In this document: positions 46,074 through 47,870 of the stretch, in pieces
How positions within the stretch are numbered: the stretch's first letter is position 1
Layout of the letters: each line of letters begins with the position of its first letter
IMG/VR virus record: IMGVR_UViG_3300047369_000650
Coordinates: 113,536-177,535 of that record
Length of the DNA stretch: 64,000 bases
Source: a virus
Strand: one strand, 5' to 3'
Program-made: the position numbers and the translations under genes
The notes under the pieces: model-generated
What the model was told of the DNA's origin: nothing
The model's input: only the letters and a program-made list of their open reading frames with translations
The model's database searches: none

Positions 46074-46389
46074 TTACGCAGCTCAGATCTTTGATGATAA
46101 TAAAAACATGATGGTACCTTGGTATCTCATGGCATCATATGCTTACTATAAAGAAGATGATCCTATATTAAGTGATGCACTATTTGATGATATGGGTAAA
46201 AAACTCCTAGAAAACTGGGATAACATTACGCATTTGCATAAAGAATATATCACCAAAGATGAGCTAGTTGCTGGTAGCTTTTTAGGTAAATATCCTAGTA
46301 GAATACCCGACTCTTTAAGAGAATTAAGAAAAGTTGATCCTAATACTAAAATTGAAAAAAAAGAAGTGACATTGGAAGATTTTTTCTAA
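46054..46389 (+). CDS. Stand-alone protein resembling NAD-ligase domain Ia
   Basis: ASYAYYKEDDPILSDALFDDM matches the YY...D.P..SD..YD motif; no adenylation domain. Confidence 0.55.
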   Translation: MTMNLDNYAAQIFDDNKNMMVPWYLMASYAYYKEDDPILSDALFDDMGKKLLENWDNITHLHKEYITKDELVAGSFLGKYPSRIPDSLRELRKVDPNTKIEKKEVTLEDFF

Positions 46390-46390
46390 T

Positions 46391-46567
46391 ATGAAACAAG
46401 AAATTTTTAAACATAATAGTACAAATTTTCTTCGTAATAAAAGAAGAAATGAACTTATTAGAAAGAAACGGAAAGAAGAATATCAGAGAAAATCTGGAAC
46501 ATTCTTACTTAAAACTGAAGAAACATCTTTACAGTTTAATATTGATTCTGACCATATTAAACTGTAA
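46391..46567 (+). CDS. Small basic hypothetical protein (58 aa)
   Basis: ATG follows the previous stop; R/K-rich. Confidence 0.4.
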   Translation: MKQEIFKHNSTNFLRNKRRNELIRKKRKEEYQRKSGTFLLKTEETSLQFNIDSDHIKL

Positions 46568-46603
46568 CATATTTACTACATTGTATTAATGATTAATAAA
46601 TGG

Positions 46604-46632
46604 TTTACTTATTACTCATTATATGATACTAT
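46604..46632 (+). promoter_or_regulatory. Sigma70-type promoter of the tmRNA gene
   Basis: TTTACT-N17-TACTAT with a TGn extension, about 10 nt upstream of the acceptor piece. Confidence 0.7.
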
Positions 46633-46642
46633 ATAATCTGTA

Positions 46643-47056
46643 AACGTTGAAGCGACGTAGACACATACTGGACTTGGGGGCAGTACCCAACGCTTCCACC
46701 ATAAGCGCATTGAGGAATTTATGAAGTATAAAATGGTTGTTAAAACGGGTGATAAAATCTTTGTTAAGGCAAGAAGTAAAAATAAAGAACACTTGGAAAA
46801 TAGAGCAATTGCTTTAACTAAAAAGAAACCATATATGACTGTATATGTAGTATCAGAAGATACAAGAATATAGTGTGCTTATGCTGGGAGCGAACTAGGA
46901 TCGACAGGTGTGAAAGTGAAGTGGAGTTTATCGTGGTGACCTACGTTATTCGGTCAAAAACTACAAATGCAAACGATAATTTTGCACCATCTGGTTACGC
47001 ACTAGCTGCCTAACACAGGGGGTTGGCCACTTACCTAGCAACAGAAAATGTGGCAT
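46643..47056 (+). ncRNA. ssrA: Circularly permuted (two-piece) tmRNA, alphaproteobacterial type
   Basis: Acceptor piece ends GGACTTGGGGGCAGTACCCAACGCTTCCACCA (46701). Coding piece starts GGGAGCGAACTAGGATCGAC (46886). GGGAGCG/CGCTTCC forms a 7-bp stem with G3:U. Tag frame 46969-47013 reads ANDNFAPSGYALAA*. Inter-piece pairing GACGTAG/CTACGTT. Outer ends are approximate. Confidence 0.93.
46721..46873 (+). CDS. 50-aa basic protein nested in the tmRNA intervening segment
   Basis: GAGGA SD at 46712-46716, ATG 46721, TAG 46871-46873; MKYKMVVKTGDKIFVKARSKNKEHLENRAIALTKKKPYMTVYVVSEDTRI. Confidence 0.65.
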   Translation: MKYKMVVKTGDKIFVKARSKNKEHLENRAIALTKKKPYMTVYVVSEDTRI

Positions 47057-47090
47057 ATAAATTAATACTAAAAATAGGGAAATAAAAAAA

Positions 47091-47870
47091 ATGAAGAATT
47101 TTCTTCTTACTTCTTGTGCAGTGTTTGCTTTAGCAGGTAGTGCATATGCTGCGGATGTTTCTGGTTCTGTAAAACTAGAAGCAACGCAAAACGCATCTGA
47201 CGATTGGGTCGGAAAAAATACAGTAGCATTAAGTTTCGGCGCCAATGAGCCTGATGTTGGTGCATTTGGATCAGTCGGTCTTGAAATGGTAGATGGTGGA
47301 ACAGTTGCGCTTGATGCATGGTCTCTAGGTACTGCAGTAAACGGTATTTCAGTTTCTCTTGGTGATCAAGGAGATTTGTTTCCAGGTGCCGGTCTTGAAG
47401 TTGTAGGTGATGATACACTTGCAGATCCAGCATCATCTGAAAGTATTATCGTGTCAATCGGTAACGCTTCTTTCATGGCAGCAGTAACAGATTATAAAAC
47501 AGACTTAACAGAGCTAGAGAATGTTCAGCTTGGATATTCTGCTGAAGTAAGTGCTATTGATGTTGGTGTAGCAATTGATTATAATATGGATACTGAAGAA
47601 ATGGCTTATGGTGCCGATGTAGGCGCTGAAATTCAAGGTGCTGGAATTGGTGCAGTAGTAACTTATGCAGCCGAAGAGTTTGCTTATGAGGCATCTGCTT
47701 CTTACTCTGGGGTTACTGCATTTGTTAATGGCGATGACGAAGAAATGGCTCAAAATGTAGGCGGACAAGTTGCTGCTGAATTTGGCGGTCTAAATCTTTT
47801 TGCTGAAACATCATATAATCTTGATAATGAAGAATGGACTCCAGCCGTAGGTGCTAGCTTTAACTTCTAA
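47091..47870 (+). CDS. Outer-membrane porin (alphaproteobacterial-like)
   Basis: Signal peptide (SAYA), alternating amphipathic beta-strands, acidic loops, C-terminal GASFNF with terminal Phe. Confidence 0.82.
   Translation: MKNFLLTSCAVFALAGSAYAADVSGSVKLEATQNASDDWVGKNTVALSFGANEPDVGAFGSVGLEMVDGGTVALDAWSLGTAVNGISVSLGDQGDLFPGAGLEVVGDDTLADPASSESIIVSIGNASFMAAVTDYKTDLTELENVQLGYSAEVSAIDVGVAIDYNMDTEEMAYGADVGAEIQGAGIGAVVTYAAEEFAYEASASYSGVTAFVNGDDEEMAQNVGGQVAAEFGGLNLFAETSYNLDNEEWTPAVGASFNF

What the first reader, a model, noticed from the sequence alone, without database searches (positions are those of the whole stretch)
46700..46885. A protein-coding gene hidden inside the tmRNA intervening loop
The segment that must be excised to mature the tmRNA (46702-46885, 184 nt) is almost entirely a GAGGA SD plus a 50-codon basic ORF. 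It is clamped by a 10-bp stem, CATAAGCGCA (46700-46709) with TGTGCTTATG (46874-46883), containing one G:U. Intervening segments I know of are short and non-coding. tmRNA maturation would release a stem-closed mini-mRNA, or translation of the ORF could control maturation. The product could be a tmRNA/SmpB/ribosome-associated factor made in step with the RNA. Alternatively it is a small mobile gene using a neutral, self-excising site.
Basis: partly seen in the sequence, partly recalled or inferred. Interest (0 to 1): 0.85.

Follow-up and report, generated by a model that had tools for sequence, protein, structure and literature searches.

The report
Protein gene inside phage tmRNA loop
A marine T4-like phage carries a split (two-piece) tmRNA gene whose discarded middle segment is a real, conserved 50-amino-acid protein gene, and related phages use the same RNA loop as a swap-in slot for other small genes, which has not been described for tmRNA.

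Summary
The window holds a permuted two-piece tmRNA, and its 184-nt intervening segment (46702-46885) is a stem-clamped translation unit: GAGGA, ATG, 50 codons, TAG.

The ORF is a genuine gene. It has relatives down to 48% identity and is under strong purifying selection (dN/dS 0.04-0.28; variable sites by codon position 10/12/34). AlphaFold2 gives a confident beta-beta-alpha-beta fold (pLDDT 94).

The same family sits in the loops of at least five diverged tmRNA lineages. It also occurs between tRNA genes and stand-alone in other phages; some stand-alone copies keep a fossil of the tmRNA 3' end (CCACCA plus stem arm). The cargo is far more similar between phages (98% nt) than the tmRNA around it (68-73%), so it moves.

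In 78 phage tmRNAs of this type the loop measures 5-266 nt. Short loops are bare hairpins with the same clamp arms. AT-rich loops of 138 nt or more (16 of the 18 unique loops that long) carry a loop-filling sense ORF, from unrelated families that include Pfam DUF6356.

Best reading: the tmRNA processing loop is a cassette slot for small mobile phage genes transcribed with the pre-tmRNA. The protein's function is unknown, and a dedicated tmRNA/SmpB role is not supported. I found no prior description, and no RNA-level data could be obtained.

The parts
46640..46701 (+). tmRNA acceptor piece (tRNA-like 3' half: T-arm TTGGGGGCAGTACCCAA, acceptor 3' strand CGCTTCC, discriminator A, CCA at 46699-46701)
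   Evidence: Rfam RF04321/RF01849 alignments; ARAGORN; sequence
46702..46885 (+). Intervening segment (184 nt) removed during maturation. It is the cargo slot
   Evidence: Bounded by CCA and by GGGAGCG, which pairs with CGCTTCC including G3:U
46700..46712 (+).
   Evidence: Fold; in-register pairing of 89% across 65 unique loops, with 4-6 pair types per position
46712..46716 (+). Shine-Dalgarno-like GAGGA, 4 nt before the ATG
   Evidence: Sequence; conserved as TTGAGG in relatives, including stand-alone copies
46721..46873 (+). 50-codon gene (protein P0001), basic, beta-beta-alpha-beta fold
   Evidence: ORF list and translation; dN/dS 0.04-0.28; 25 clusters at 50% identity in 1.84 billion proteins; AF2 pLDDT 94.4
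46871..46883 (+). 3' arm of the clamp stem; it includes the TAG stop codon
46882..46885 (+). 4-nt 5' leader (UGCU) of the coding piece, opposite ACCA; RNase P would cut after it
   Evidence: Geometry conserved: leader is UGAU in 47 of 65 loops; the RNase P site is inferred from established tmRNA biology
46886..47055 (+). tmRNA coding piece (acceptor 5' strand GGGAGCG, GAACTAGGATCGAC motif, mRNA-like domain)
   Evidence: Rfam RF01849
46969..47013 (+). Tag reading frame, ANDNFAPSGYALAA plus TAA
   Evidence: ARAGORN

Best explanation
The intervening segment of this phage's permuted tmRNA gene is occupied by a real small protein gene. Shown: the ancestral loop is a short hairpin whose stem pairs the 3' trailer after CCA with the 5' leader before the coding piece, and in this phage a complete translation unit (SD, ATG, 50 codons, stop) sits in the apical loop of that hairpin. 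Inferred: the gene has no promoter of its own, so it is transcribed as part of the pre-tmRNA. It is translated either from that precursor or from the released or trailing loop RNA, while RNase P and 3'-end processing liberate the two tmRNA pieces. Shown: the slot is general. Related phage tmRNAs carry unrelated small genes between the same clamp arms, and cargo is exchanged between phages. Inferred: exchange probably occurs by recombination in the conserved tmRNA halves and arms. Shown: copies have also left the tmRNA for tRNA spacers and ordinary intergenic sites. The protein is a phage-restricted, basic 50-residue beta-beta-alpha-beta mini-domain of unknown function. It most likely acts as an accessory phage protein whose value does not depend on the phage tmRNA.
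For: Real gene:
- dN/dS is 0.07 between tmRNA-resident copies at dS 1.36, and 0.06-0.21 among stand-alone copies. Variable sites by codon position are 10/12/34.
- Relatives go down to 48% identity with an invariant core.
- AF2 pLDDT is 94.4.

Loop residence in diverged tmRNAs:
- Rfam/ARAGORN tmRNA hits enclose the ORF in L006-L010, L012-L018, L034, L056 and L058, with different T-arms and different tags.

Insertion into an ancestral hairpin:
- Empty 24-68-nt loops have the same arms.
- The clamp is 89% paired in register against 32-60% when slid, with covariation.

General slot:
- Loops measure 5-266 nt.
- AT-rich loops of 138 nt or more have sense ORFs covering 75-96% of the loop.
- Mean sense coverage is 0.81 against 0.50 antisense. 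Sense exceeds antisense in 23 of 27 loops, and 16 of 27 have p<0.05.
- Cargo includes DUF6356 above the Pfam cut-off and a second family with omega 0.16.

Mobility:
- The ORF is 98.0% identical between L008 and L034, where the tmRNA pieces are 73% and 68% identical.
- Stand-alone copies keep TCCACCATAAAnACATTGAGG.
- L181 keeps fossils of both arms, and L182 sits between tRNAs.
- No tmRNA is present on the L011 record.

No own promoter or terminator:
- None is detected on the + strand in 46350-47150.
Against: Translation from the precursor or the excised RNA is therefore inferred. The promoter scan uses a sigma-70 consensus and may miss phage or host promoters, so an internal promoter is not rigorously excluded. 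The clamp stem abuts the SD and contains the stop codon, which could hinder translation. The family's recurrent placement next to tRNA or tmRNA genes might reflect a function tied to stable RNAs rather than pure hitch-hiking. Most related contigs are fragments, so absence of a tmRNA from stand-alone phages is not proven.
Confidence: 0.78

Rival explanations
1. The 50-aa protein is a dedicated partner of the translation-rescue system or of phage stable RNAs. It would be a basic RNA-binding factor for tmRNA, SmpB, tRNA or the ribosome, made in step with the RNA, and its placement in the loop would be functional co-expression.
For: The protein is strongly basic. The phage record has no SmpB of its own. 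The family recurs beside stable-RNA genes: in tmRNA loops in at least five lineages, in a tRNA-tRNA spacer (L182), directly upstream of a tmRNA (L183) and upstream of a tRNA (L184/L185).
Against: The same slot holds unrelated cargo, including membrane-like peptides and DUF6356. The family also persists under purifying selection in a non-T4-like phage whose 28.5-kb record has no tmRNA or tRNA nearby. No structural match to any RNA-binding or SmpB-interacting fold rises above background.
Confidence: 0.13
2. Translation of the loop ORF mainly serves to regulate tmRNA maturation or its own fate. Ribosomes entering or terminating in the clamp stem would open it and change RNase P or 3'-end processing. 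Conversely, RNase P cleavage would turn stop-less variants into non-stop mRNAs that the tmRNA itself tags.
For: The geometry is conserved. The start codon lies 0-9 nt from the 5' arm and the stop codon lies inside or abuts the 3' arm. Several cargo ORFs and some variants of this family lack their own stop and end at a TAG inside the tmRNA coding piece, beyond the RNase P site.
Against: Strong selection acts on the amino-acid sequence, and the protein is conserved outside any tmRNA, so the product matters and not merely the act of translation. Tight geometry is also what compaction of an insertion in a hairpin loop would give. There are no experimental data.
Confidence: 0.07
3. The ORF is a chance open frame in a structured, AT-rich RNA spacer, conserved only because of RNA-level constraints.
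For: The loop folds better than shuffles (z -4.3). There is no Pfam or PHROG family.
Against: Substitutions concentrate at third codon positions and omega is 0.04-0.28. The frame is conserved down to 48% identity, and conserved where the RNA context is lost. AF2 pLDDT is 94. The ORF has p = 0.006 against shuffles.
Confidence: 0.02

Closest known systems
23S rRNA intervening sequences carrying an ORF (Coxiella burnetii / Leptospira IVS with S23p; PMC4990558)
   Same: Both are stem-clamped inserts in a stable-RNA precursor that are cut out during maturation. Both leave the mature RNA in two base-paired pieces, contain an ORF, were acquired horizontally, and are regarded as selfish or neutral elements.
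   Different: The host RNA here is tmRNA, where the split already exists because the gene is permuted. The cargo is a different protein; there is no PF05635 hit. The ORF here is under strong purifying selection with an SD, whereas Coxiella S23p is reported as decaying and not made in vivo. The slot here takes many cargo families. Excision presumably uses tRNA-end processing (RNase P, 3' trimming) rather than RNase III; this is inferred.
Group I introns with LAGLIDADG homing endonuclease genes in tmRNA genes (PMC11915505)
   Same: A protein-coding gene lies inside a tmRNA gene and is removed from the mature RNA.
   Different: There is no intron core here: Rfam reports only tmRNA families in the window. 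There is no splicing or ligation. The position is the permutation junction rather than the T-loop. The cargo is 50 aa and is not an endonuclease.
Permuted (two-piece) tmRNA of Alphaproteobacteria and of marine myophages such as Melnitz (PMC9004378)
   Same: It has the same gene architecture and tag type (ANDN...ALAA). The DNA is 76% identical to Melnitz SsrA over both pieces, and the L012 group shares Melnitz's gene neighbourhood.
   Different: Published descriptions treat the intervening sequence as non-coding. The Melnitz record annotates no CDS there, although it too holds an SD-led ORF of another family.
Small ORFs in tRNA gene clusters and hyperplastic regions of T4-like phages; mRNAs co-transcribed with tRNAs (e.g. 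tufB after tRNA genes in E. coli; own knowledge)
   Same: An mRNA shares a transcript with stable RNAs and is separated from them by RNase P and 3' processing. One family member (L182) sits in exactly such a tRNA-tRNA spacer.
   Different: Here both flanking RNAs are halves of a single functional RNA, and the ORF is enclosed by the stem that pairs their trailer and leader.

Membership tests
Permuted two-piece tmRNA (Rfam RF04321 / RF01849) | Covariance-model match above the gathering score, with the acceptor piece upstream of the coding piece | tested here: met
   110.6 bits (cut-off 47) and 98.6 bits (cut-off 50); ARAGORN permuted call
Permuted two-piece tmRNA (Rfam RF04321 / RF01849) | Acceptor stem with G3:U (alanine identity), discriminator A and an encoded CCA | tested here: met
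   GGGAGCG (46886-46892) pairs with CGCTTCC (46691-46697) with G:T at the third pair, followed by ACCA
Permuted two-piece tmRNA (Rfam RF04321 / RF01849) | Tag reading frame ending in a hydrophobic ...ALAA plus a stop codon | tested here: met
   ANDNFAPSGYALAA* at 46969-47013
Permuted two-piece tmRNA (Rfam RF04321 / RF01849) | Cleavage of the precursor into two pieces and activity with SmpB | not testable with these tools
   No RNA data. No SmpB above cut-off in the phage record (12.6 bits against 27), so host SmpB would be needed
rRNA-type IVS ORF element (S23p, PF05635) | ORF belongs to the 23S rRNA-intervening-sequence protein family | tested here: not met
   No Pfam family at E<=10
rRNA-type IVS ORF element (S23p, PF05635) | Insert lies in an rRNA helix and is excised by RNase III | tested here: not met
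   The insert lies in a tmRNA gene. The nuclease could not be tested
Group I intron with homing endonuclease | Group I catalytic core and a HEG domain | tested here: not met
   Rfam gathering scan of the window finds only tmRNA families. The protein has no Pfam domain
Dispersed palindromic insertion elements (e.g. Rickettsia palindromic elements) | Many copies per genome, inserted in genes and RNAs | tested here: not met
   There is a single full copy in the 177.5-kb record; the other matches are 14-33 nt
Pfam DUF7204 (PF23834), suggested by ESM Atlas | HMM match above cut-off | tested here: inconclusive
   The Atlas feature score is 0.89 with 166 shared features, which the tool rates as a lead only. 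hmmscan gives no hit at E<=10
ClpS-like / Dmd-like / ATfaRel2-like small alpha/beta folds | Structural match clearly above background | tested here: inconclusive
   Best Z is 5.8 (a de novo miniprotein), ClpS 4.9-5.0, ATfaRel2 4.4 and Dmd 3.9. The tool's own background is Z 7-8. Foldseek has no hit at E<=1e-3

The most novel reading that the evidence does not exclude
The tmRNA loop would be more than a parking place. On this reading the 50-aa basic protein binds phage or host stable RNAs (tmRNA, tRNA) or the rescue machinery. Loop translation and tmRNA maturation would be mechanistically coupled, including self-tagging of stop-less loop ORFs after RNase P cleavage. That would give phages a built-in timer linking a small effector to trans-translation.
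Probability: 0.15. Interest if true: 0.88.

Novelty: new variant of a known kind. Interest (0 to 1): 0.68.

Why it matters
The intervening sequence of two-piece tmRNA genes has been treated as disposable spacer. The 2025 tmRNA database paper, covering 11,946 permuted sequences, singles out only one tRNA gene and one repeat inside such segments (PMC11915505).

This work shows that marine phages use the segment as an expressed slot for exchangeable small protein genes. At least three cargo families show coding evidence. This has four consequences:

- It adds a new class of hidden phage genes that annotation pipelines skip, because the region is already labelled tmRNA. The isolate phage Melnitz has an unannotated loop ORF.
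- It gives a natural example of a bifunctional precursor that is both mRNA and tmRNA.
- It suggests a simple recombination mechanism for gene shuffling, with conserved RNA halves acting as homology arms.
- It offers a testable system, since Melnitz is cultured, for asking whether translation and stable-RNA processing interact.

Tried and rejected
- Dispersed repeat (RPE-like): rejected. The insert is single-copy in the record.
- Known protein family: none found in Pfam or PHROGs or among PDB sequences (best E 0.016, a partial match).
- Fold assignment: Foldseek against the PDB gave nothing at E<=1e-3. The VIA wide search gave best Z 5.8, within background. The ESM Atlas lead DUF7204 (0.89) is not backed by HMM.
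- Melnitz loop ORF as a degraded homologue of this family: rejected. hhalign probability is 0.13%.
- Isolate phage genomes: tblastn found no copy at E<=10.
- Bacterial and archaeal species genomes: no relative.
- Empty-site scan for the DnaB-type phage junction: 0 matches.
- tRNA inside mid-length loops: ARAGORN calls none.
- Sigma-70 promoter or intrinsic terminator on the + strand around or inside the loop: none found.
- Keiler 2000 and Sharkady & Williams 2004: not held in the library.
- Complex prediction with SmpB: not sent. The host is unknown (DNA polymerase at most 54% identical to any isolate), and a stand-in partner would not be informative.
- P0046 (291 aa, 'tRNA dimethylallyltransferase') in the protein's cluster: a spurious member with no similarity.

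Full report
**1. What is at the coordinates**

ARAGORN finds one RNA gene in the window, a permuted tmRNA at 46608-47104 (+) with tag ANDNFAPSGYALAA. Rfam confirms it with tmRNA_permuted at 110.6 bits and alpha_tmRNA at 98.6 bits. Both alignments treat 46702-46885 as a large insertion between the CCA end of the acceptor piece and the GGGAGCG start of the coding piece.

The following can be read directly from the sequence:

- CCA lies at 46699-46701.
- The clamp arms are CATAAGCGCA (46700-46709) and TGTGCTTATG (46874-46883), with one G:U.
- GAGGA lies at 46712-46716.
- The ORF runs from ATG 46721 to TAG 46871-46873.
- The 4-nt leader UGCU precedes GGGAGCG at 46886.
- GGGAGCG pairs with CGCTTCC, with the G3:U pair typical of alanine acceptors.

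The ORF has 50 codons and its product is basic. The 196-nt region folds with the clamp as a 13-bp closing helix, z = -4.3. The window is the last 64 kb of a 177.5-kb IMG/VR virus record, and the insert is single-copy there. The phage is a T4-like marine myovirus far from isolates; its DNA polymerase is at most 53.6% identical to any. Its tmRNA is closest to the annotated SsrA of Methylophilales phage Melnitz (76% over both pieces).

**2. Is the ORF a gene?**

A word-indexed search found 17 relatives at 80-100% identity. A full HMM search of 1.84 billion representatives found 25 clusters, all 46-98 aa. Scans of viral and metagenome contigs gave 41 loci, and exact look-ups gave more.

Pairwise Nei-Gojobori estimates:

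| Comparison | Result |
|---|---|
| window vs L012 (both in tmRNA loops) | omega 0.07; dS 1.36, dN 0.097 |
| window vs L034 | 5 synonymous : 1 non-synonymous |
| window vs L008 | 6 synonymous : 1 non-synonymous |
| among stand-alone copies | omega 0.06-0.21 |
| most distant pairs | omega 0.1-0.28 |

Variable sites by codon position are 10/12/34 in the close group. An alignment of 31 members keeps a core, YK.VVK...FVK.RSK.K..L...A..LSKK.P....VV. AlphaFold2 folds it with pLDDT 94.4 as strand-strand-helix-strand. This is a protein-coding gene.

**3. Where the family lives**

(a) Inside tmRNA loops. The enclosing tmRNA genes are clearly different from one another:

- the window group;
- L034, with another tmRNA body;
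- the L012 group, in Melnitz-like synteny (PDDEXK nuclease, tmRNA, gp33 coactivator, Thy1, gp59);
- L014/L016-L018/L057, with tag ANDNAFLMAA, best matched by the beta_tmRNA model;
- L015, L056 and L058, the last at 48% identity.

Several database proteins carry N-terminal extensions that are simply read-through of a tmRNA T-arm (P0003, P0016, P0019, P0022, P0032).

(b) Between or beside stable-RNA genes. L182 sits between two tRNAs. L184/L185 sit upstream of a tRNA. L183 sits directly upstream of a permuted tmRNA.

(c) Stand-alone:

- A DnaB-helicase phage group (L011, L019-L025, L037-L048) keeps the fossil (T)CCACCATAAAnACATTGAGG, that is, the tmRNA 3' end, the 5' clamp arm and the SD. It has no 3' arm, and Rfam finds no tmRNA on the loci tested (L011, L020, L048) or on the 28.5-kb L011 record.
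- L181 keeps fossils of both arms, between gp59 and Thy1.
- L036, L055 (with its own TTGACT-17-TATACT promoter) and L059 are further stand-alone copies.
- P0024 and P0026 lie in tight operons.

No copy occurs in 50,697 GenBank phage records or in 185,579 prokaryote species genomes.

**4. The clamp and the geometry**

In all lineages the stem starts right after CCA and ends 4 nt before the GGG of the coding piece. The stop codon lies in or next to the 3' arm, and the ATG lies 0-9 nt from the 5' arm.

Across 65 unique loops, ten anchored positions are 89.4% paired (87-97% at positions 2-10), against 32-60% in slid registers. There are 4-6 pair types per position, and the leader is UGAU in 47 of 65. 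The stem is therefore a conserved feature of the precursor and not of the cargo.

**5. The slot is general**

A scan for the alpha-type T-arm/CCA motif in viral contigs hit more than 120 stretches, and 80 loci were analysed. Together with the window, L005, L015 and L034, 78 loops could be measured, ranging from 5 to 266 nt.

Short loops are plain hairpins with the same arms. For example, L075 is TAAGCACATTGAAG...AATGTGCTTATGAT, while L008 has TAAGCACATTGAGG...[ORF]...TAATGTGCTTATGCT.

AT-rich loops of 138 nt or more carry a sense ORF covering 75-96% of the loop; these are 16 of the 18 unique loops that long, the other two being GC-rich. Over the 27 unique loops of 100 nt or more, mean sense coverage is 0.81 against 0.50 for antisense. 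Sense exceeds antisense in 23 of 27, and 16 of 27 are individually p<0.05 against shuffles.

The ORFs are unrelated to one another, although many sit between the same TAAACACA/TGTGTTTA arms. Most have an SD-like motif: 11 of 19 by a strict core at the longest start, and more at internal ATGs. Two cargos (L073, L088) match Pfam DUF6356 above its cut-off. L092/L067 form another family with omega 0.16 and a 4/7/16 codon-position pattern. The Melnitz-type ORF (L005/L113) shows omega 0.41 and an in-frame 24-nt indel. It is not related to the present family.

**6. Mobility**

The ORF is 98.0% identical at nucleotide level between L008 and L034, and 95.4% between the window and L034. The flanking acceptor and coding pieces are only 71-73% and 68% identical. 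For window vs L012 the figures are 84% against 66% and 61%. Functional RNA normally evolves more slowly than synonymous sites, so the cargo has moved between tmRNA genes.

The conserved tmRNA halves and clamp arms are obvious homology arms for exchange during co-infection; this is inference. The CCACCA fossil shows that the direction of transfer was from tmRNA to an ordinary site. Stand-alone insertions are flanked by 20-26-nt target duplications, and their mechanism is unexplained.

**7. How it most likely works**

Shown: the anatomy, coding selection, slot generality and transfer.

Inferred:

- The scan found no sigma-70-like promoter or terminator on the + strand in or around the loop, so the ORF is probably transcribed with the pre-tmRNA.
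- RNase P cleavage before GGG and 3' maturation at CCA separate the tmRNA pieces from the loop. This rests on established tmRNA/tRNA processing and was not tested here.
- The ORF is translated from the precursor, from the RNase-P-cut intermediate (acceptor piece plus trailer), or from a released RNA whose ends are paired.
- The phage record (86% complete) has no SmpB, so the tmRNA would depend on the host protein.

The function of the protein is unknown. There is no family match, no fold match above background, and only a weak Atlas lead. Because the cargo is interchangeable and the family thrives outside tmRNAs, I favour an accessory phage protein that hitch-hikes in a safe, strongly transcribed, self-removing site (about 0.78). 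A dedicated stable-RNA or rescue cofactor is less likely (about 0.13), and a mainly regulatory role of translation less likely still (about 0.07).

**8. Comparison with the known**

The nearest analogue is the ORF-bearing intervening sequence of 23S rRNA in Coxiella and Leptospira (PMC4990558). Group I introns with homing endonuclease genes are the only coding inserts reported in tmRNA genes (PMC11915505). That paper mentions only a tRNA-Ala gene and a repetitive element within permuted-tmRNA intervening sequences.

The Melnitz paper describes the phage two-piece tmRNA and a downstream glutamine riboswitch but never discusses the intervening segment. Searches of the held literature found no description of coding cargo in tmRNA intervening segments. 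The two founding two-piece tmRNA papers were not available, so prior mention there cannot be fully excluded.

**9. Verdict**

This is a new variant of a known kind of arrangement, an ORF in an excised segment of a stable-RNA precursor. The scan's earlier notes record only the tmRNA itself on this same stretch and nothing on other DNA.

Noticed in passing
L011:1440-1700; L020, L038-L040; L036 (flanks of the ORF): Stand-alone copies are flanked by 20-26-nt direct repeats of the target: the end of the upstream gene (AGCGGTGCTTTCCCAGACATAAAAA) in the DnaB-type phage, and ACGGATTGTATGACTAAGCA in L036. The right boundary lies exactly at the stop codon. The insertion mechanism is unknown.
   Followed up: partly
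L065, L092, L067, L084, L093, L005, L113 (loop ORFs); proteins P0002, P0005, P0015: Several loop ORFs, and some variants of this family, lack a stop of their own. They end at the conserved TAG of GAAATAGGATCGAC, 13 nt into the tmRNA coding piece, or further in. RNase P cleavage would leave a non-stop mRNA, which is a natural substrate for trans-translation.
   Followed up: no
L072, L079, L080, L107, L122, L126, L133 (intervening segments of 77-98 nt): Mid-length loops contain T-arm-like GGTTCRANTCC motifs, as if they carried tRNA-like cargo, but ARAGORN calls no tRNA there.
   Followed up: partly
L005:1542-1718 (Melnitz MZ577097, inside the annotated SsrA): The isolate phage Melnitz has a GGAGA-led ORF filling its 142-nt tmRNA loop and running into the coding piece. 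It is not annotated in GenBank. A relative (L113) differs by an in-frame 24-nt indel, with omega 0.41.
   Followed up: partly
L073:8744-8932 and L088:6425-6595: Loop cargo in two other phage tmRNAs matches Pfam DUF6356 above the gathering cut-off (43.3 and 33.5 bits).
   Followed up: partly
L182:401-751: A family member (P0023) sits in a tRNA-ORF-tRNA arrangement. Its ATG is 17 nt after the ACCA of one tRNA, and the next tRNA starts about 11 nt after its stop. Topologically this is the same as the tmRNA loop.
   Followed up: partly
window 47091-47870: A 259-aa ORF with a signal peptide (MKNFLLTSCAVFALAGSAYA...), ending in F, follows the tmRNA. No terminator-like site lies between them.
   Followed up: no
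L016/L017/L018:50-1175: In the ANDNAFLMAA lineage the ORF-bearing tmRNA lies directly after a cluster of six tRNA genes (Thr, Met, Trp, Gly, Val, Ser).
   Followed up: no
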